Shown in pieces: positions 2,335-34,031 of a stretch of 64,000 bases of DNA. The notes under the pieces were generated by a model, which saw nothing but the letters and a program-made list of their open reading frames with translations, made no database searches and had not been told where the DNA came from. This DNA is from Narcine bancroftii (lineage: Eukaryota): assembly GCF_036971445.1 (NCBI RefSeq), contig NC_091478.1, forward strand, positions 21,824,001-21,888,000. The letters are read 5' to 3'. The first letter of the stretch is position 1. Each line of letters begins with the position of its first letter. The position numbers were made by a program, and so were the translations under genes.

Positions 2335-3204
2335 CTGTCAATGAAAAATATAATATGAATGGAAACTACCCTGAGCACCACAGCTCGTTTTGAACCATAA
2401 ACGTGCAAACATCAGCTATTAAATGCTCCTTTCTTTTCATGACTTACATATTTTGATACAATAACATAATTTTTCACCTCTATTACCTTGATAGATTTGT
2501 TTGCTAGGACACTAAAATTTATCTTGTTTAAGAGATCCAGTGGCCTATTGTATCATATTTATGAGATCATTTTCTATTTGTAAAACAATAAAGCCCAACC
2601 AGTTAAATCAGGACTGCTTGGATGAAGAACAGGGTAAAATTATGGCCCTTCAAATTAAAACTGCATGGCTCTCCAGCGAACTCTATTAATAACCTTCACG
2701 ACTTGTCACAATACAGTTAGCCATTGTGCTGAGAAATAATGAGAACTGGCCGGGAAATTATTTAGTTACAATGTCCATCAGTGACTTGTCATCATGACTC
2801 TATTAAACGAGGTGGGCCAGCAAGTACGGTGAAGGATGTAAGGAGGTACAGAATGGGCAAGAATTTGGAAGATTGTATACACTGTCATAAACTCTGAGGC
2901 CATGAGCGAAAATAAGAGTATTTGTGCAGTAGTGCAAGATTGAGTGTTGATGTACAAAGGGACCCAAGTGGGCTTATCCACAAGTTCCCCAAGGCTAACA
3001 TGCAAATGATTAAAAGGGCAAATGATAGATTAGCCTTCATTACAACAGTAATGAAATCTTACTCCAATGGCCAGACCACTCCTTGAATAATGTTTCCTTA
3101 CTTAAAAAAAAATATACTAAGCTTGGAAGAAGTGAAATAAGATTCATAAGTTTGATTCCAGGGATGGTGGGTTTGCTCCATGAAGAGAGATTGAGTAGAT
3201 CAGG

Positions 3205-3645
3205 ACCAGGATCTTAATGGCCTGGTATGGGGACACCAATACTCCTGAGCAGAAAGCCCTGCAAAAGGTAATGGACACAGCCCATGATATTACAAATAAA
3301 ACCCTCATCAAGGATCCACATCAACCAGCACATACTCTGTTCTCGCTGCTACTATTAGGAAAGAGGTACAGGTACCACAAGACTCGCGCCACCAGGTACA
3401 GGAACAGCTGCTACCCCTCCACCATCAGACTCCTCAACGACAGACTCAATCAGGGGCTCATTGAGGGACTCTTACTTTTGCATTTCATTAATTTTTTTTC
3501 CTTCTGTATTGCAGTCAGTTTGTTTACATGTATACATTTCTACTTGAGTAGTTTTTTGAACTACTCGGCCACAGGAAACAGAATCTCAGGGCTCTATGTG
3601 ATGTGATGTCATGTTTGTACTCTGACAATAAATCTGAATTTTGAT
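3205..3645 (+). mobile_element. Rex1/Babar-type 3' fragment nested in a CR1 fragment
   Basis: WYG..KALQKV..KDPHQPAHTLFSLL..GKRYR..RNSCYPSTIRLLN; same family as ~14490-14780 and 38935-40030. Confidence 0.75.
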
Positions 3646-6399: not shown

Positions 6400-7985
6400 A
6401 TAATTCACATGCCCTCCATCTTCAATAACTTCAATATCTTCAATAACTTCCAATTTCCTGAATTTGACTGTCTCCTTTTCACTATGGACGTCCAATCTCT
6501 CTACACCTCAATCCCTCATACAGAAGGACTCAAGCCCTTTGTTTCCTTAACAACAGAACGATCCAGTACCCCTCCAACACAACCTTCCTCTGCTTGGCAC
6601 CCTCAATAATTTCTCCTTTGACTCAACCCACTTTTTCCAAGTTACAGGAGTAGTCGTGTACACCCACATGGGTCCCAGCAATGCCTCCATTTTTGTTGGC
6701 TTTGTGGAGCAATCCATGCTGCAATCCTTCATAGGCACCGTTCCTCCTTTTCCTCTGCGACATTGGTGCTACCTTACAATGAGCATGTCAACTTTATTCC
6801 TGACCTCAAACTCACTCAGTCCATCTCCAGTGACCATCTCCCCTTAATAAATCTCTCTGATTCCATCAGGAGATAAACTTCCTACAGACATTGTCTATAA
6901 ACCTTCCAACTCCTACAATTATCATCACACTTCTTCACACCCACTTTACTATAATGATTCTATTCCTTTCTCTCAATCCTTCAATTTCCATCGCATCTCT
7001 TTCCAAGATGAGGCCTTCCATTTCAGATAATCCGAGATGATCTCCTTCTTCAAAAAAATGGGGCTTTCCCTCTACCACCATCAAGTCAGCTCTTACCCGC
7101 ATCTCCTCCATTTCCCACACATCTGCCCCTAGACGCAACAAGAACAGGATTCCCCTTGTCCTCACCTACCACCCCACCAACCTCCGCATCCAACATATCC
7201 TCCTCCTACAACAGGACTCCACCAGCAGACACATCTTCCCCTCTCCTTCCCTGTCTGCATTCTGTAGGGACTCCCTCATCCACTCATCCCTTCCCACTAA
7301 TCACTTCCTTGGTACCTTTCCCTGTACCCACACCCCCTCCCTCACCACCTTCGGGACCCCAAACTGTCCTTCCAAGTGAAGCAACATTTCACTTGTGAAT
7401 CTGCGGGAGTCATCTACTGCACCTGGTACTCCTGTTGTGGCCTTCTCCACATCGGAGAGACTGGACACAGACTGGGAGATCGCTTGGATGAACACCTTCG
7501 CACTGTCTGCATCAATGACAGGGATCTCCCAGTTGCCAACCATTTCAATTCTGCGGCCCAATCCTGCGCCAACACGTCCGTCCCTGGCCCTCATGCACTG
7601 CAAACCAGGGTCACCTGCAACGTGGAGGAGAAACATCTAATACTCCACCTGGGCACTCCAACCAGATGACATTAATATCAACTTTTCCGCTTTCTGCTAG
7701 ACCATTCCCCATCTCACCCTATCCTTCTGTCTCTTTTCCTCCAGCTCTCCACTCCTTCCCTCTCCATTCACAGAGCCATTCCCCCCCTCCCCTGTTTTCT
7801 ATTGGGCCCTCCCTCCCTTATCCACCTATTACCTCCTGCCTTTGCTCCTCCCCTGCCCCATCTTATTCAGGTGCCTGCCAACATTTTGTCATACCTTGAT
7901 GAAGGGCTGAAGCCTGAAACGTTGGTTTATCTTTGCCATGTAAAGTAAGCTGGGGACCTGCTGAGTTCCTCCAGCATTGTGTTTT
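6400..7985 (+). mobile_element. Degenerate Penelope-like retroelement (RT + GIY-YIG endonuclease)
   Basis: RT motif LFTMDVQSLYTSIPH; GIY-YIG segment FTCESAGVIYC..CCGLLHIGETGHRLGDRLDEH...PVANHFNS; several frameshifts; hammerhead-like motif at 7896-7923. Confidence 0.85.
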
Positions 7986-15589: not shown

Positions 15590-16000
15590 CACGCCCTCCA
15601 CCGCTCCTGGCGTGGCGGGTGGGCCGAGGTTGCCTACTGCAGAGCACCCAGATGCTGGGAAGGAGGGGTTGGAAGGGGGGGGGGGCCTTGTGACTTACCT
15701 TTGCCTTTCTATTGAAGCCCCCGGGTACCGCGCTGCAGAACCTCCACCTTCACCTCGTGGCCCTCGCTCCGACCGGACCCGATCGCCGGCCCACCGCCCG
15801 ACTGACAGGCGGCTCCAGCCACTGGCATGCGGCGGGCGGGGAAGCGCCAGCCAATGGGAGCGCCGGATTCGACGCACCCATTCTTTGCAGGGCGGATTGA
15901 CAGGCAAGTGCCAAGTCGTCTCCAAAGGTAACGAGGAGCTTGCGCGTTGATTGGTTGCTGGTTTGTTACACTGGAGGAGAGATCAAAGACGGCGAGAGTG
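15590..16000. promoter_or_regulatory. CpG-island promoter of SFXN3 (possibly bidirectional)
   Basis: GC/CpG-rich island in AT-rich surroundings; GC box GGCGGGCGGG at 15831-15840, CCAAT at 15851-15855, ATTGG at 15950-15954. Confidence 0.75.
15699..15830 (-). other. SFXN3: Probable non-coding exon 1 of SFXN3 (5' end approximate)
   Basis: Strong donor AG|GTAAGTCA at 15699/15698 inside a CpG-rich patch. The first coding exon has an acceptor upstream of its ATG, so an upstream exon is required. Confidence 0.7.
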
Positions 16001-16174
16001 CGTTACTGGACATTGATTGACAAAAGGGAATATTTGACATTTGCAAAGGTTTGGATGAATGCTCCCAAAGCACTTTGCAGTGTTTTTAAAGTGTTTCTAA
16101 AGTGCAGTGTTGTGAACATTGAATCATCTCACAAGCCTGACAAATTTTGGTTACGGATGTAGGGTGCATTAATG

Positions 16175-16925
16175 ATAAAACACAATGTTGGAGAAACTCA
16201 GATGGTCAAACTGTGTTCCTTATGGAGCAACGTTTCGGGCTTGAGCCCTTCATCAAGGCATGGACAAAATGTCAGCAGGTGTCCGGTCAAAATGGTTGGA
16301 GTGCGGCAAGGGGAGGAGCACAGTCCCAAAGGCAGCAGGTGGAGAAGGGAGGGAAGACACACCAGCAACCGGGCTCTGTGAATGGAGAGGGAAGGGAGTG
16401 GAGAGCTGAAGGAAAGAAGACAGAGGGAATAGGAAGGGAGGGAGAACAGAGAGAAGGTGGGCAGAAATCAGAGAAGTTGATGTCAATGCCATCTGGATGG
16501 AGAAAAATAAGTGTTGCTCTTCCAATTTACAGGTGGTCTTGCTGGGATAATAAATGAGGCCACATTGGAATCTTGAATAAATAAAAGGAAAAGCTGGAAG
16601 GACTCATCAGAGCAGTCAGTATTCATGGGGAGAAATGGACAGTACAGTTTCGAGTCAGTACCCTTCCTCAAAAGAAACGGAAGAGGAAACATCAAGCATA
16701 AAATAAGAGGTCGAGTGAATAGGATACTGTACAAATGAAGGTGGGAAAGGTGGAGAGACAGCTGGGAAAGGAGACCATGGGGAGAGGGGTGGGGAGGATT
16801 GAGAAAGATGTGATAACGGGAGTAGGCCAAAGGTAGATGGTAACAGTGGAACCAGAGTTAGCTGAAACTGGAAAATTTAATGTTCACATTGTTGGGTTTT
16901 CGTCTATCTTGCTGGAATGTGATAT
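16175..16925 (-). mobile_element. Two Penelope-like 3' fragments in tandem
   Basis: Reverse-complement similarity to 7650-7985 (TGCTGGAGGAACTCAGCAGG-type end, purine-rich tract, hammerhead-like motif). Confidence 0.65.
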
Positions 16926-17214
16926 ATGATTGAGGATATTGATGTAATTTTCTTTTTTTTTTTTTTTTTAAATTTTTTTTTATTTTTCACACCATAAATC
17001 ACATTAGCCATGATATACACTATTTCTTTTCACACATATACAGTTACTTTTTCTCCCCCCCCCCTTTCCTCCCAAACCACCCCCCCACCCCCCCCTCTCA
17101 TCCATTTTAGGTATACAATCTAGGTTGCATTAAGCCAGTCAGACAATGTTGTCATTCAACAAAATTACACCAGAAATTCTACTGAGTCCATTCTTTTCTT
17201 TCCTTCTCCTTCCA

Positions 17215-17427
17215 TCAACTTAGGTAATGTTTGTCCCCGGTAGGTTTTCGCTATTGTATTTAATGTAAGGCTCCTATACTTGTTCGAATATTTCAATATT
17301 ATTTCTTAACCAATATGTTATTTTTTCTAATGGAATACATTTATTCATTTAAATTTGGTAGTTTCTTCCTTTTAATTTGGTTATGTATACCATTAATATT
17401 TAAAGACATATAGTTCAGCGTAGCCCT
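17215..17427 (-). pseudogene. Fused N- and C-terminal stubs of L1 ORF2
   Basis: ATLNYMSLNINGIHNQIKRKKL (start of the APE endonuclease) joined at ~17350 to MNKCIPLEKITY...EQV*EPY (ORF2 C-terminus), out of frame. Confidence 0.85.
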
Positions 17428-18026
17428 TTTATATTTTGTTTATCTTCTCTTTCCGTTTTTCCATCATTACCTTTCCTCCTTTTCCATTTCTGTTTTCTTA
17501 TTTTCAACTCTTTATAAGACAACATTCCTACAACATCTAACATTTTCCTTATTCTCCTATTTCTATCTTATTTATCCCCAATCTCCCCTTCACCTCCTGA
17601 GTTGTCCTTTATCCCTTGTCGGACAACCACATCTCCCCTCTCCATTTGGATTTGCGAATCCACTCGCAAGCGTCAACTGATTTTGCAGTGACCGCTATTT
17701 CCCCCCACCCCGCCTCCCCCAGAAAAGATTTCACTTTTCATATGTCACAAAGGTCCCTCTTTTAATTCCCTCCTTATTCTCTCTATTCCATTACCTTCCC
17801 TTATTAATTCTTGTCTATACTATCTATATTTTCCTCTAAGTACAGATACATTCATGTATGCTCATTGTCTCTATTCACTCTTATACCTCTTTACCTGCAT
17901 ACATATCAATCGTGATCATTTTTACTCTCATTACCCGTCTTCATCCCTCAGTCTATTTTTGTCTTTACCCACATACATATCAGTCGTGATCATTTTAACT
18001 CTCATTACCCGTCTTCCTCCCTCAGT

Positions 18027-19250
18027 CTATTTTTGTAATTGTTCTGCAAATTTTCGTGCTTCTTCTGGATCCGAGAATAGTCTGTTTTGTTGTCCTGGAA
18101 TAAATATTTTCAATACCGCTGGATGCTTTAGTATAAATTTATACCCTTTCTTCCATAAAATCGCCTTTGCTGTATTGAACTCTTTTCTCTTCTTTAGGAG
18201 TTCAAAACTTATATCTGGATAAATGAAGATTTTTTGCCCTTTATACTCCAGTGGTTTGTTGCCCTCTCTTACTTTTTCCATTGTCTTCTCCAGTACCTTT
18301 TCTCTTGTAGTATATCTTAGGAATTTTACTACAATAGATCTTGGTTTTTGTTGTGGTTGTGGTTTAGAGGCCAATACTCTATGTGCCCTTTCTATTTCCA
18401 TTTCATGCTGTAGTTCTGGACATCCTAGGGTCTTAGGGATCCACTCTTTTATAAACTCCCTCATATTCTTGCCTTCTTCATCTTCCTTAAGGCCCACTAT
18501 CTTTATGTTATTTCTTCTGTTATGGTTTTCCATTGTATCTATTTTTTGGGCTAGTAGTTCTTGTGTCTCTTTAGTTTTTTTATTAGATTTCTCCAATTTC
18601 TTTTTTAAGTCTTCTACCTCCATTTCTGCTGCTACTGCCCGCTCTTCCATCTTGTCCATTTTTTTTCCCATTTCTGTTAAGGTCATCTCCATTTTAACTA
18701 TTTTCTCCTCTGTGTTGTTTATTCTTTTTCTTAAATCCTTAAATTCCTGTGTTTGCCATTCTTTAAATGACTCCATGTATCCTTTAATAAGAGCAAGTAT
18801 ATCCTTTACCTTGCCTATCTTTTCTTCTTCTATTTCACCATACTCTTCCTCTTCTTCTTCCTCTGGGTTGACCATCTGTTGTTTCTTTGTTGCCCTTTCC
18901 TCCTCTTCTTTCTTGTTTCTATTGTCTTCTGTGGTCTCTTCTTGCTGCAGGTGTTCTGCAGCTGTCGTTGCCGGCTGTGGAGATCGACTCCCCAGCTGGT
19001 CCCCCCTCCCGTCGGTGTGTTTTTTTTCATTCGCATCGCGCATGCGCGAAACTTCGCGCATGCGCGGTTGCTCACTTTTGCTCGGCTCTGCGAGCCATTT
19101 TTGTAGTCCATTATTTACCGACCTGAGGGAGCGGGTTTCTCTCTCCGCAGCGGGCCTCTTCGGACAGGTAAGGCCTTCACCTTTTTCCTCCTTTGTCTTC
19201 TCTTCCTCTCTTCTTACCGTTGCTTTCGACTTTTCTTTTTTTGTCGCCAT
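18027..19250 (-). CDS. LINE-1 ORF1p (407 aa; coiled coil + RRM + CTD)
   Basis: Uninterrupted ORF with a heptad-rich coiled coil followed by RRNNIKIVGLKE, IERAHR, PRSIVVKFLRY and IFIYPDIS motifs typical of L1 ORF1p. Confidence 0.92.
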   Translation of the reverse strand: MATKKEKSKATVRREEEKTKEEKGEGLTCPKRPAAERETRSLRSVNNGLQKWLAEPSKSEQPRMREVSRMRDANEKKHTDGRGDQLGSRSPQPATTAAEHLQQEETTEDNRNKKEEEERATKKQQMVNPEEEEEEEYGEIEEEKIGKVKDILALIKGYMESFKEWQTQEFKDLRKRINNTEEKIVKMEMTLTEMGKKMDKMEERAVAAEMEVEDLKKKLEKSNKKTKETQELLAQKIDTMENHNRRNNIKIVGLKEDEEGKNMREFIKEWIPKTLGCPELQHEMEIERAHRVLASKPQPQQKPRSIVVKFLRYTTREKVLEKTMEKVREGNKPLEYKGQKIFIYPDISFELLKKRKEFNTAKAILWKKGYKFILKHPAVLKIFIPGQQNRLFSDPEEARKFAEQLQK

Positions 19251-19635
19251 CTTCTTTCCACCTTTATACTCACTTTTCTGTAACTTTTATTTCTGTGCCT
19301 TTGTGTTTTCTCTTGTTTTTCCCGACTTTTCTGGAGAGGGCTGGAGTTCACCGTCCGGCCACTACTCCATCGCGTGACTCCTCCCTGATATTGATGTAAT
19401 TTTCCAGGTGACAGGAAGAGTGATGGTTGTTGATAATACAGTGATATTGATGTGTTAGTGAAATGAGCTGAGAAATGGCACATGGAGTTTGATCTTCATA
19501 AATAAATGGAGGACTTGATTACCTGAATTGCATTCTAAAGAGGCAAGGGCATTTGATATGAATAATAGGGCCAAGGCAAATATGGAGAAATACAGTGAAT
19601 TTGTGGATGTATTAAAAATCTTTGAAGATGGCAGC

Positions 19636-21140
19636 TGTTGTGTAAATCATGCCGCCCACATATATCTCTCTGTATTTCAGTAGCCATGTTAGTCTGATGG
19701 TAATAAAGAATGAGAAAAGCACCATGTCTCCGAGTCCTCATTATGTCAGTGCCTACACAACAGTGGTGACAAGGAATGAAACGAACCCTACGCGTGCTCC
19801 ATGCACCAACCGGGGGAAAGAAGCAAAAGGATAAAGGTAAAAGGTGACTACCTAACAAGCTCCACAAGTTCCCGCCAAAAAAATCAAAGCGAAAGCGCAC
19901 CAAGGTGGTGGAGGGAAAGTTTGGAGAATTCAACGAAGCAGATGGAAGTTGGGGTAATTACGTAGAACAGTTTAACCACTAGTGCATAGCTCATAATGAT
20001 TGAAGCCCCGGTGAACTGAAAACATGCCCTTTTCCTCAGTATAATGGGCAGCAAAACATTTGATCTCCTTAAAACTTTGCTGTCCCCGGAGGACCCACAG
20101 ACTGAGACATACACCAAGTTGCGCTCAGCACTGGGGAACCACTTAAACCCCAGACCACCAGTTATGGCAGAAAGGCAACAGTTCTACGAAAGGAGTGAAA
20201 TGCCAGGGGAGGCAGTAAGTGAATACCTGGCAGCGTTGCGTAAACTGTCCAAGCACTGTCACTTCGAGCAGTTTCTGACCCAAGCACAGATTGGGTTGGC
20301 AGATCACCAGGCAAAGCAGAAATTACTGGCAATGGACGACAAAGTAATTCTCAAAAATCGCTTATAGAACTGCCTGCACCTCTGAAATGGCAGACAAAAA
20401 TTTGGAAGTGGGCCAACAAGACCTTCTGGTCAGGAGGTATAACCATCACCCAGAAAACTGTTTCTTCAAAAATTCTAAATGCCACCATTCAACAAAAAAG
20501 GACATATCAAAGGAAAATGTCCAATTAAAGAAACAGTAAAAAGCAGGAGAACTCAAAATTGTGATGACCACCCAGCTGAGGTCAAATCTCTAATAGAGAG
20601 AGAGCATAGACAGTCATCAAAGAAATCCAAAAGGAGACAACATTAAGCAAAATCTTATACTTCACCCTTATTGGATGGCCAGAATCTGAGGTCATACCAG
20701 AAGACCTAAAAACTTACTTCACACGCTACCATGAACTATCAGTTGAAGAAGGTTGTTTACTTTGGGGTACCCATACAATTATCCTGGCCAAATGGCAAAA
20801 CACCATATTATCAGAGCTGCACCACAACCATCCAGGAATGGTACGAATGAAAGTGCTGGCCTGGATGCATGTTTGGTGGCCATCAATAGACAGAGACATT
20901 GAAATGACAGTGAGAGAATGAAAAATATATCAGTCAATACAGCCAAAATTGCCATAGGCCCAGGCTGAGGGCAATCCATGAAAATGGCCTTCCAGACCCT
21001 GGCATCGGATTCATGTAGACTTCGCGGGGCCATTCACGGGAGAGACTTTCCTTATAGCAGTAGACACACATTCCAAATGGCCAGTAGTTTCACATATGAA
21101 AAACACCAAAGCCAATTCTACAATTGAATATCTACAGATT
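19636..21140 (+). mobile_element. Degenerate, internally deleted Gypsy-type LTR retrotransposon (5' LTR, PBS, gag and integrase remnants)
   Basis: 127-bp LTR TGTTGTGT...ACACAACA (19636-19762) with AATAAA; PBS TGGTGACAAGG; gag-like ERQQFYER..PGEAVSEYLAALRKLSKHCHF; integrase-like HPGMVRMK...VWWPSIDRDIE and PWHRIHVDFAGPF...VDTHSKWP. Confidence 0.85.
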
Positions 21141-29959: not shown

Positions 29960-31670
29960 GGTACATTATCCACATATGTTCTGGGAATTCAGGACCCTGA
30001 TGGCTTGAGGGAAAAAGCTGTTGCTCAATCTAGATGTAAGGGCCCGAGCACTATGGTACCTCCTACCAGATGGCAGAAGGGAGAACAGATTACATGAGGG
30101 GTGTGTTGTGGAGTCCTTCACAATGTTTATTGCCTTTTGCCAGAATGGAGTGTTGCAGATGTCCTTCGTTGTAGAAAGAGAGCCCCCCAATGATCTTTCC
30201 CACTGACTACACCATCGGGTCTTGCGGTCTGAGGTGGTACAGCTTCCAAAACAGACGGTGTTGCAGTTGTACAGGATGCTCTCAATACATCCTCTGTAAA
30301 ATGTAGTGAGGATGGAGGGTGGGAGATTAACTTTCCTCTGCCTTTGCAGGAACTAGAGGTGCTGCTGGGCTTTCATGGCTATGGAGCTTGTGTTAAGGGA
30401 CCAGGTGAGATTCCCTCCAAGAAACTTGATATTCTTGACAAGAAACTTGATATTCTTGACAATCGCAATGGTTGAGCCAACAATGGTCAGTGGAGTGAGA
30501 TCTCCCTGGGGCCTCCTGAAGTCGACCATCATCTCTTTTGCTTTATTAACATTCAGATACAGGTTGTTGGCTCCACACCAGTCTATTAGCGACTGCATCT
30601 CATCTCTGTACACTAACTCCTCATTCTTACTAATAAGACCCACCACGGTCATGTCGTCACTTGATGATGTGGTTAGAGATGTGTTTAGCTACACAGTTGT
30701 GGGTCAGCAAAATAAACAGCAGTGGACTAAGCAGACTGTTCTGGGGGACCCCCATGGTCTTGGAAATGCTGTTACCGATCCAGACTGCTTGAGGTCTTCC
30801 CGATAGTCAAGAATCAGGCACTGGGTATGATTGTATTAAAGGCCGAACTGGTCAATAAACAGCATTTGAACAAATGAGCCCTTATTTTCCAGATGAGTGA
30901 GGGCTAGATAGAGGACAGAGGCAATGGTATTGTCCATAGAGTGGTTGGATCTGTATGCAAACTGCAGGGAGTCAAGTGACGGGGCAGCAGGAGCTTGAGG
31001 TGCCCCATGATGAGCCTCTCAAAGCACTTCATGACTAAGAACATGAGTGCAACAGGATGGTAGTTATTGAGGCAGGACATAGATTACTTTCTTCGGCACA
31101 GGGACATTGGTGGCAGCTTCGAAGCACATAGGAAACCATGACACTTCTCAGGGAGATGTTAAAGATGTCGGAGAGAACAGCTGCCAGTTGAGCTGCACAT
31201 CCCCTGAGCACTCTGCTGGGAATGTTATCCGGACCAGCAGCTTTCCGTGGGTTGACCTTGCCGGACACTCTCTTCACATCGGCCACTGCAAGACACAGCA
31301 CCTGATCATTTGGAGGAGAGGTGGTCTTCTTCACCGCCACATTGTCTTTCACCTCAAAACATGCATAGAAGTTGTTCAGTGCATCTGGCAGGGAGGCATC
31401 ACCAGCACAGACAGATGGCATAGTCTTGTGATTGGTGGTATCTTGGATGCCCTTCCACATGTGTCGTGTGTCCTTCCTGTCTAGGAAGTGACTATGAATG
31501 CACTGGGCATGTGCACGCTTTGCTTCCCTGATGACCTTAGACAGCCTGGCTCTTGCAATAGCTAGGGCTACCTTGACATCCACTCTGAAGGCAGTGTCTC
31601 AGTTCCTGAGTAGCACATATATCTCTGCAGACATCCATGGCTTCTGATTAGAGTGAGTAACGATGGTCTT
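29960..31670 (-). mobile_element. Degenerate Rex1/Babar-type non-LTR retrotransposon (RT region)
   Basis: KAAGPDNIP..VLRGCAAQLA..DIFNISL; VVGLISKNEE..YR..WC..NNL.LNV.K.KEM.VDFR; LFSLLPSGRRY..NSFFPQAIR; frameshifted. Confidence 0.85.
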
Positions 31671-33449: not shown

Positions 33450-34031
33450 TTCGTCTTCTTCTCATTCTGTCATTTTAGTGGGTGGAGGTCTGCGGTAGGC
33501 CCTCTCTGTTGTGTTCCATGTATGGTTCCCAAATTTGTTTGAATAATGTGACTTTATTTTTTTAATTATATGTTATTTTTTCCAATGGAATACATTTATT
33601 CATTTCTATGTACCATTGCTGTACTCTCAGGGTCTCTTCTGATTTCCAGGTTGACATTATACATTTTTTTGCTACAGCTAAGGCTATCATAATAAATCTT
33701 TTTTGTGTTCATCCAGTTTGAGGCCTAATTCTTTACTTCTTATATTACTTAAAAGAAAGATCTCTGGATTTTTTTGGTATGTTGCTTTTTGTGATTTTAT
33801 TTAGATTTAGATCTTCCCAAAACTTTTCCAATTTCTCACATGCCCAAATTGCATGTACTGTTGTTCCCGTTTCCTACTTACAGTGAAAACATCTATCTGA
33901 TACTGTTGGGTCCCATTTATTTAACTTTTGGGGTGTGGTGTATAGCCTGTGTAACCAATTATATTGTATCATGCGTAACCTCGTGTTTATTGTATTTCTC
34001 ATAGTTCCGGAGCAGAGCTTTTCCCATATTT
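33450..34031 (-). mobile_element. L1 ORF2 C-terminal fragment, related to the element at 17-19 kb
   Basis: Translates to ...QYNWLHRLYTTPQKL...DRCFHCK*ETGTTVHAIWAC (CCHC knuckle)...MNKCIPLEKITY...WEPY. Confidence 0.85.

What the first reader, a model, noticed from the sequence alone, without database searches (positions are those of the whole stretch)
16935..19404. Young, full-length ORF1-only LINE-1 derivative (HAL1-like non-autonomous family) next to the SFXN3 promoter
Seen: a 2.43-kb element with a 136-bp 5' UTR, an intact 407-aa L1 ORF1p, an inter-ORF spacer, a G-rich 3' UTR tract, poly(A) and a perfect 18-bp TSD, but almost no ORF2. The ORF2 stubs look decayed (probable start ATG>AGG at 17427-17425, a TGG>TAG stop) while ORF1, its CpGs and the TSD look pristine. 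Known: ORF1-only HAL1 ('half-L1') elements have arisen repeatedly from L1 and need ORF2p in trans. Inference: the deleted form has been replicating as its own lineage, keeping ORF1p under selection and borrowing RT/EN from autonomous L1s. It may be an undescribed chondrichthyan HAL1-type family. It lies ~1 kb upstream of, and co-directional with, SFXN3.
Basis: partly seen in the sequence, partly recalled or inferred. Interest (0 to 1): 0.75.

Follow-up and report, generated by a model that had tools for sequence, protein, structure and literature searches.

The report
Half-length LINE-1 parasite in electric rays
A 2.4-kb LINE-1 jumping gene has kept its RNA-packaging protein but lost its copying enzymes, and it likely multiplies by the hundreds with enzymes borrowed from intact LINE-1s in what is probably an electric ray, a freeloading design known from mammals.

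Summary
Observation confirmed: a 2,434-nt minus-strand L1 with perfect 18-bp TSD, 136-nt 5' UTR, intact 407-aa ORF1p (human L1ORF1p E=5e-13; Narcine bancroftii models up to 97% identical) and ORF2 cut to 208 nt by one deletion at 17350. Public-run contigs show a high-copy family, order 1,500-2,000 copies by my calibration, whose intact-ORF2 form leaves the element exactly at 17350. This copy's ORF2 lesions are shared: 56% of depth lacks the ATG and 24% lacks the TGG of a Trp kept in 112 of 113 ORF2p relatives, against about 0.1% for one copy. Shared alleles fall in matching tiers on both sides of the deletion, and 5' ends are nearly as deep as 3' ends. So the deleted form likely replicates in trans: a HAL1-type lineage (about 0.8). 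No listed contig spans the junction, so its copy number is inferred. Contig geometry points to an empty allele, a young insertion. Selection on ORF1 is not shown, and nothing links the element to the sideroflexin gene 1 kb away. My searches found HAL1 only in mammals. New member of a known kind; interest 0.47.

The parts
19387..19404 (-). Target-site duplication, 5' copy (18 bp)
   Evidence: D5, 100% identical to 16935-16952
19251..19386 (-). 5' UTR, 136 nt, likely internal promoter (inferred)
   Evidence: fish L1 5' UTRs average 165 +/- 42 nt (PMC5381506 Table 2, passage); X1 depth 623,832 in bin 19275-19385 against 352 in the next bin
18027..19250 (-). ORF1, intact 407-aa L1 ORF1p (N-terminal region, coiled coil, RRM, CTD)
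   Evidence: PDB 2ykp LINE-1 ORF1P E=5.3e-13 over residues 195-401; Pfam PF02994 only E=0.086, below cut-off; N. bancroftii P0179 97%, P0001 91%
17888..18035 (-). 74-bp tandem duplication (93% alike) at the ORF1 stop
   Evidence: D1, 70
17428..18026 (-). Inter-ORF spacer, 599 nt including the duplication
   Evidence: fish spacers 536 +/- 132 nt
17350..17427 (-). ORF2 N-terminal stub (start of the endonuclease), start codon reads AGG; the frame stops at 17343-17341, just past the junction
   Evidence: 44.5% of X1 depth reads ATG at 17426; no Pfam or PDB hit for the 28-32 aa stub, so its identity rests on position, the loose ends and a recalled motif
17350..17350 (-). Deletion junction; one base fits either side; no GT/GC donor; about 3.55 kb of ORF2 missing (inferred from fish ORF2 length 3,773 nt)
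   Evidence: loose ends before and behind 17350 (table 7); relic alignment
17220..17350 (-). ORF2 C-terminal stub (last 42 codons) with TAG at 17276-17274 in place of a near-invariant Trp
   Evidence: W in 112 of 113 aligned relatives, of 152 examined
16988..17219 (-). 3' UTR with G-rich tract (about 17098-17053)
16953..16987 (-). AATAAA (16984-16979) and poly(A) tail with a TTT interruption
16935..16952 (-). Target-site duplication, 3' copy
   Evidence: D5
15698..16050 (-). CpG island and likely first-exon donor of the neighbouring sideroflexin gene (context, not part of the element)
33493..33999 (-). Older, broken 5'-truncated L1 ORF2 3' end (context: shows the sequence that precedes the C-stub in the intact form)
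   Evidence: 43% to RT protein P0028 with RVT_1

Best explanation
This is a full-length, ORF1-only L1 whose ORF2 was removed by one internal deletion at 17350, and it is likely a young copy of a non-autonomous (HAL1-type) lineage that is copied by ORF2p borrowed from intact L1s of the same family. Shown: the anatomy, the junction, an intact-ORF2 form that leaves the element at the same base, and wide sharing of this copy's ORF2 lesions. Inferred: an ancestor lost about 3.55 kb of ORF2 (one-base overlap, no splice donor, so template jump or DNA repair); its 5' UTR still drives a 2.4-kb poly(A) RNA; its own ORF1p coats that RNA; ORF2p from an intact L1 nicks the target and copies the RNA by target-primed reverse transcription, leaving the TSD and tail; the short RNA is mostly copied to its 5' end, so daughters keep the promoter and seed further subfamilies while the ORF2 stubs decay.
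For: (contigs of 4 public runs, likeness 85): (1) X1 flank contigs have depth 11-14, element bins 325,818-1,112,867. Two near-private sites (17756, 18698) leave only 398 and 63 for this copy's allele, and a toy simulation gives an overcount of 22-26: order 1,500-2,000 copies. The tool warns that depth is no copy number, so this is my estimate. (2) At 17275, 23.6% of X1 depth (167,966) is not TGG, about 450-560 copy-equivalents; 27% in X7 and 28% in X5. The Trp is kept in 112 of 113 aligned ORF2p relatives, so a source with this stop likely made no working ORF2p. (3) At 17426, 55.5% of X1 depth is not ATG (48% in X7, 82% in X5). (4) This copy's minority alleles fall in tiers found on both sides of the deletion: 23-25% (17275; 17406, 18549, 18697, 18839, 18840, 19230), 13-15% (17310; 18590), 5-7% (17165, 17312; 17896), 1-2% (18405, 19072) (32 of the 40 rows listed, 109 rows not shown): a cascade of source elements. 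(5) Depth 3' of the junction is only 1.14 times the next three bins 5' of it and 1.57 times all 18 such bins in X1, 0.31 in X7, where 6-kb L1s should be heavily 5'-truncated (established for L1; full-length copies are very rare in fish and lizard, PMC5381506 section 16). (6) Only 30 and 34 X1 contigs have loose ends at 17350, 4.0-4.5 per unit of contig density; the simulation gives 7.4-17.6 for a unique junction and 3.5-7.5 for 75% deleted copies at minimum alignments of 20-25. (7) The loose ends behind 17350 match the ORF2 sequence of the in-window relic: a helper family exists. (8) X1 contig 1 stops at 16934 with 30 letters unlaid and contig 4 starts at 19387, the geometry of an empty allele for 31-letter words. 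(9) P0179, a model on another N. bancroftii record, shares the shortened C-terminus.
Against: No contig piece that was listed (32 of 28,778) spans 17350, so linkage of AGG and TAG to the junction is inferred. 'Not-ATG' and 'not-TGG' depth may include third letters. With a minimum alignment of 31 the simulation lets a unique junction give loose-end values as low as 4.7, close to the observed 4.0-4.5, and 1,453 loose-end rows were not shown. The junction bin's ratio to its neighbours (1.30) ranks only 4 of 19 in bins that scatter 0.66-1.40. In the RNA-like run X5 the 3' side is 3.6 times deeper, as truncated or intact L1s would give. Human ORF2p needs no AUG. Run X11 shows only ATG and TGG alleles. 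Selection on ORF1 in this lineage is not shown (p=0.12; an intact frame after 20 neutral changes has chance 0.3). No close full-length ORF2p was found (best 43-44%), so a live helper is inferred from contig ends.
Confidence: 0.8

Rival explanations
1. A single internally deleted copy of an autonomous L1 subfamily; the deletion happened during or after this insertion, and AGG and TAG are tolerated subfamily marks in full-length ORF2s.
For: Intact-ORF2 contigs exist on both sides of 17350; one-base overlap fits a one-off deletion; ORF2p can start without AUG; no spanning contig was listed.
Against: The stop removes a Trp kept in 112 of 113 relatives yet is shared by about 24% of depth; flat 5'/3' profile; few loose ends at 17350.
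Confidence: 0.12
2. The junction is common but each copy is made afresh from intact L1 RNA (recurrent splicing as in SpIREs, or a template-jump hotspot), so deleted copies are dead ends, not a lineage.
For: The intact sequence has AG just before the C-stub; spliced L1 insertions with recurring junctions exist in humans (PMC5860796, abstract).
Against: The removed part begins AC or CT, not GT or GC (loose-end consensus); fresh products of intact L1s would carry ATG and TGG, not tiers of shared ORF2 lesions.
Confidence: 0.05
3. Many junction copies arose by DNA-level duplication (segmental or inside another mobile element), not by retrotransposition in trans.
For: Not excluded by depth alone.
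Against: Depth falls about 1,800-fold at the 5' end and 9,000-fold at the 3' end (table 2), so copies do not share flanks; this copy has its own TSD and tail and likely an empty allele.
Confidence: 0.02
4. A domesticated ORF1 gene or a selected promoter for the sideroflexin gene (L1TD1-like).
For: Intact ORF1, 1 kb from a CpG-island promoter on the same strand; RefSeq models join this ORF1p to host gene names.
Against: High-copy family, TSD and tail intact, likely empty allele; no listed RNA contig joins element and gene.
Confidence: 0.01

Closest known systems
HAL1 (half-L1) of mammals, e.g. rat RNHAL1
   Same: L1-derived, encodes only ORF1p, arose several times (PMC5753468, passage); made by deletion of ORF2, about 7,500 copies in rat and still propagating, 98% like the active L1 (PMC2241872, passage).
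   Different: Cartilaginous fish, so an independent origin from a fish-type L1 (136-nt 5' UTR, 599-nt spacer); keeps short stubs of both ORF2 ends; 2.4 kb. The papers I saw place HAL1 in mammals. Bao and Jurka 2010 was not held; I know it only through these citations.
Fish-type autonomous L1
   Same: 5' UTR, spacer, ORF1p domains, G-rich 3' UTR, poly(A) and TSD match (PMC5381506 Table 2).
   Different: Lacks about 3.55 kb of ORF2; 5' ends are abundant, whereas full-length L1s are very rare in fish and lizard.
ORF1-only telomeric Jockey elements of Drosophila (HeT-A type)
   Same: Repeated loss of ORF2 with dependence on ORF2 of other families (bioRxiv 10.1101/2025.06.09.658640, passages).
   Different: Other clade, telomere-specific arrays; this element inserts singly with a TSD.
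SpIREs (spliced L1 insertions)
   Same: Internally deleted L1 with TSD and tail.
   Different: SpIREs have splice junctions in the 5' UTR or ORF1 and are mostly dead ends; here no splice donor, and promoter and ORF1 are whole.

Membership tests
HAL1-type element | Derived from L1 and encodes an intact ORF1p | tested here: met
HAL1-type element | No ORF2p (EN and RT absent) | tested here: met
   208 nt of stubs only
HAL1-type element | Inserted by target-primed reverse transcription (TSD, poly(A)) | tested here: met
HAL1-type element | Many copies share the same ORF2-less structure at different sites | tested here: inconclusive
   Strong indirect support (shared lesions, tiers, flat profile, few loose ends), but no spanning contig listed and no genome held
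HAL1-type element | An L1 partner supplies ORF2p in trans | tested here: inconclusive
   Intact-type ends at 17350 in 4 of 4 runs; no close full-length ORF2p in protein searches; trans-mobilisation needs an assay
HAL1-type element | ORF1p kept under selection in the deleted lineage | tested here: inconclusive
   RRM+CTD more conserved than N-terminus+coil against P0001 (7/161 vs 22/150, p=0.003), but P0001 may be autonomous; 6 of 18 listed sites synonymous, p=0.12
Named mammalian HAL1 families (HAL1, HAL1b, RNHAL1) | Descent from a mammalian L1 or HAL1 | tested here: not met
   Closest ORF1p are ray proteins (69-97%), human ORF1p only distant; fish-type layout
Autonomous L1 | Intact ORF2 of about 3.8 kb | tested here: not met
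SpIRE | Junction at splice donor and acceptor | tested here: not met
   AG acceptor-like but no GT/GC donor in the loose-end consensus; rests on consensus of 30 and 10 contigs
Known Repbase/Dfam family | Match to a deposited consensus | not testable with these tools
   No such library offered

The most novel reading that the evidence does not exclude
In electric rays an ORF1-only parasite has overtaken its own parent L1: it makes up half or more of some 2,000 copies, runs its own cascade of subfamilies, is still inserting, is the main expressed form (82% of RNA-like depth lacks the ORF2 ATG), and feeds promoter-plus-ORF1 exons into host genes. It would be the first live HAL1 system outside mammals and would break the rule that full-length, promoter-bearing L1s are rare in fishes.
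Probability: 0.45. Interest if true: 0.65.

Novelty: new member of a known kind. Interest (0 to 1): 0.47.

Why it matters
HAL1 elements raise an open question: how does an RNA without ORF2 beat the preference of L1 proteins for their own RNA, and does making ORF1p in cis give the edge (suggested in PMC2241872)? A young, likely polymorphic lineage living beside its parent in a cartilaginous fish would be an independent repeat of this evolution and would let the question be tested with matched parent and parasite. It also matters for annotation: RefSeq models named after TEFM, FAM122B and GrpE in N. bancroftii are wholly or mostly this ORF1p. The design itself is known, so surprise is moderate.

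Tried and rejected
No genome is held, so no junction count. Junction patterns: 0 matches in viral contigs and metagenome contigs; ORF1p relatives: none in viral contigs or metagenome contigs; these collections are not expected to hold rays. Earlier findings of the scan: nothing in 4 look-ups. C-stub search for longer proteins: none; relic searches gave only distant ORF2p pieces. Stubs have no Pfam or PDB hit. No RNA holder is on record among 13 runs ('no RNA holder listed'); X5 is only guessed to be RNA and contigs cannot show strand or read-through, so the sideroflexin link was not tested. The junction-bin depth ratio is too noisy to use. dN/dS could not be computed from a cut table. Rejected: splicing (no donor), domestication (high copy, likely empty allele), assembly artefact (junction coincides with loose ends in 4 runs and shared lesions in 3). 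Paper searches for a shark, ray or fish HAL1 (listings, plus word finds in PMC5381506 and PMC5203782) found none; subscription journals, Repbase Reports, Dfam and supplements were not seen and may hold one.

Full report
Observation. On the minus strand an element runs from 19386 to 16953 (2,434 nt) between identical 18-mers (chance about 2e-4). It has a 136-nt 5' UTR, a 407-aa ORF, a 599-nt spacer with a 74-bp tandem duplication, 208 nt of ORF2, a G-rich 3' UTR, AATAAA and an A tail. The ORF is L1 ORF1p: human L1ORF1p structures match at E=5e-13, though Pfam is below cut-off. The closest of 24 hits are Narcine bancroftii models (91, 88 and 69%) and cluster member P0179 is 97% identical, so the window is probably from an electric ray. 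The exact protein is not in the collection. A sideroflexin gene starts about 1 kb downstream on the same strand; the SFXN3 label rests on recalled motifs.

The junction. An older broken ORF2 3' end in the window (33493-33999; 43% to an RT protein) aligns to the element only from 17351. In one search I laid contigs of 4 of the 13 runs listed. Loose ends pile at 17350: 30 before and 34 behind in X1, 10 before in X7, 2 behind in X11, 26 behind in X5 (24 of 1,477 rows shown). Those behind match the relic's ORF2; those before read on in frame as a Lys-rich stretch that fits the endonuclease start (recalled motif). So an intact-ORF2 form exists, and one deletion with a one-base overlap joins codon 26 to the last 42 codons. 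By fish ORF2 length (3,773 nt; PMC5381506 Table 2, passage) about 3.55 kb is gone. The removed part starts AC or CT, not GT, which speaks against splicing.

Is the deleted form a lineage? No genome is held and no listed contig piece (32 of 28,778) spans 17350, so the case is indirect. Flank contigs in X1 have depth 11-14, element bins 0.33-1.11 million. The tool says depth is no copy number; two near-private sites leave 398 and 63 for this copy's allele and a toy simulation (20 runs) gives an overcount of 22-26, which puts the family near 1,500-2,000 copies. Against that scale, this copy's ORF2 lesions are widely shared: 55.5% of depth at 17426 is not ATG and 23.6% at 17275 is not TGG, some 450-560 copy-equivalents; X7 (another organism code) gives 48% and 27%, X5 82% and 28%. 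The start loss is weak evidence, since human ORF2p needs no AUG (PMC4091050, passages). The stop is strong: it replaces a Trp found in 112 of 113 aligned relatives (152 examined). A source element with that stop likely made no working ORF2p, yet it left hundreds of copies. This copy's minority alleles also fall in tiers (23-25%, 13-15%, 5-7%, 1-2%), three of them with sites on both sides of the deletion (32 of 40 listed rows used, the 5' UTR and flank rows left out; 109 rows unseen). Depth 3' of the junction is only 1.14 times the next three bins 5' of it in X1 and 0.32 in X7, not the steep fall expected across 3.5 kb of a truncating 6-kb L1; in fish and lizard full-length L1s are very rare (PMC5381506 section 16). 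Loose ends at 17350 (4.0-4.5 per unit of contig density) fit roughly 50-90% deleted copies for minimum alignments of 20-25, which the joints table suggests (sides down to 22).

Against. With a minimum alignment of 31 a unique junction can give 4.7. The junction bin's ratio of 1.30 ranks 4 of 19 in noisy bins. X5 is 3.6 times deeper on the 3' side. X11 shows only ATG and TGG. 'Not-ATG' may include third letters. No close full-length ORF2p was found. I put the lineage reading at 0.8.

Age. X1 contig 1 is laid from 16512 to 16934 with 30 letters left over, and contig 4 begins at 19387, where a sample carrying only the filled allele would run on into the element. That is the geometry of an empty allele for 31-letter words. 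The tool dropped one joint at its repeat mask and I did not see the 30 letters, so polymorphism is inferred.

Selection on ORF1 is not shown. RRM and CTD are better kept than the N-terminus and coil against P0001 (p=0.003), but P0001 may be autonomous; 6 of 18 listed sites are synonymous (p=0.12) and an open frame after 20 neutral changes has chance 0.3. Nothing ties the element to the sideroflexin gene.

Mechanism. Shown: anatomy, junction, intact partner ends, shared lesions. Inferred from established L1 biology: transcription from the 5' UTR, ORF1p made in cis, ORF2p borrowed in trans, target-primed reverse transcription. The short RNA is likely copied to its 5' end more often, so daughters keep the promoter.

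Known kin. It works like HAL1, the ORF1-only L1 derivative that arose several times in mammals (PMC5753468, PMC13756887, PMC4859970, PMC4161310, passages) and still spreads in rat (PMC2241872, passage). It is not a member of a named mammalian family: its ORF1p and layout are fish-type. ORF1-only telomeric elements of Drosophila are an analogue (bioRxiv 10.1101/2025.06.09.658640, passages). Searches listed no shark, ray or fish HAL1; Bao and Jurka 2010 was not held, and Repbase, Dfam and supplements were not seen.

Verdict. A real, young, ORF1-only L1, likely one of hundreds in a non-autonomous lineage of electric rays: a new member of a known kind in a new vertebrate class. Interest 0.47.

Noticed in passing
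proteins P0179, P0002, P0003, P0006: N. bancroftii RefSeq models named TEFM isoform X1, FAM122B isoform X1, GrpE-like and uncharacterized are wholly or partly this family's ORF1p; P0003 and P0006 switch to unrelated sequence midway, as chimeric L1-host transcripts or mis-joined models would.
   Followed up: partly
window 18018-18367, run X11: Organism D holds ORF1 pieces with 0 differences over 165 and 215 nt at depth about 50, only ATG and TGG alleles, no flank cover, and 255-letter loose flanks: a relative with few copies, contamination, or transfer.
   Followed up: no
window 17055-17276, run X7: In organism B the 3' part is only 0.31 as deep as the 5' part, the reverse of 5' truncation; its copies may carry another 3' UTR.
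   Followed up: no
window 17888-18035: 74-bp tandem duplication at the ORF1 stop; both units have one more A than P0001's end implies, which shortens ORF1p to QLQK, as in P0179.
   Followed up: partly
window 19036-19066: 14-bp perfect inverted repeat rich in CpG inside ORF1 (I5); the family shows indels there (joints 19026-19059; 6-residue gap in P0179).
   Followed up: no
window 33493-33999 (-): Older broken L1 ORF2 3' end, 77% like the C-stub, lacking the G-rich 3' UTR.
   Followed up: yes
window 19700-20650 (+): Repeated sequence just upstream of the element (depth up to 4,046 in X1) with an ORF at 20044-20367 that looks, from memory, like a decayed Gypsy gag; no Pfam hit.
   Followed up: partly
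window 31035-31598 (-), 7301-7669 (+), 3199-3606 (+): Open stretches that look, from memory, like pieces of other non-LTR or Penelope-type elements; no Pfam hit.
   Followed up: partly
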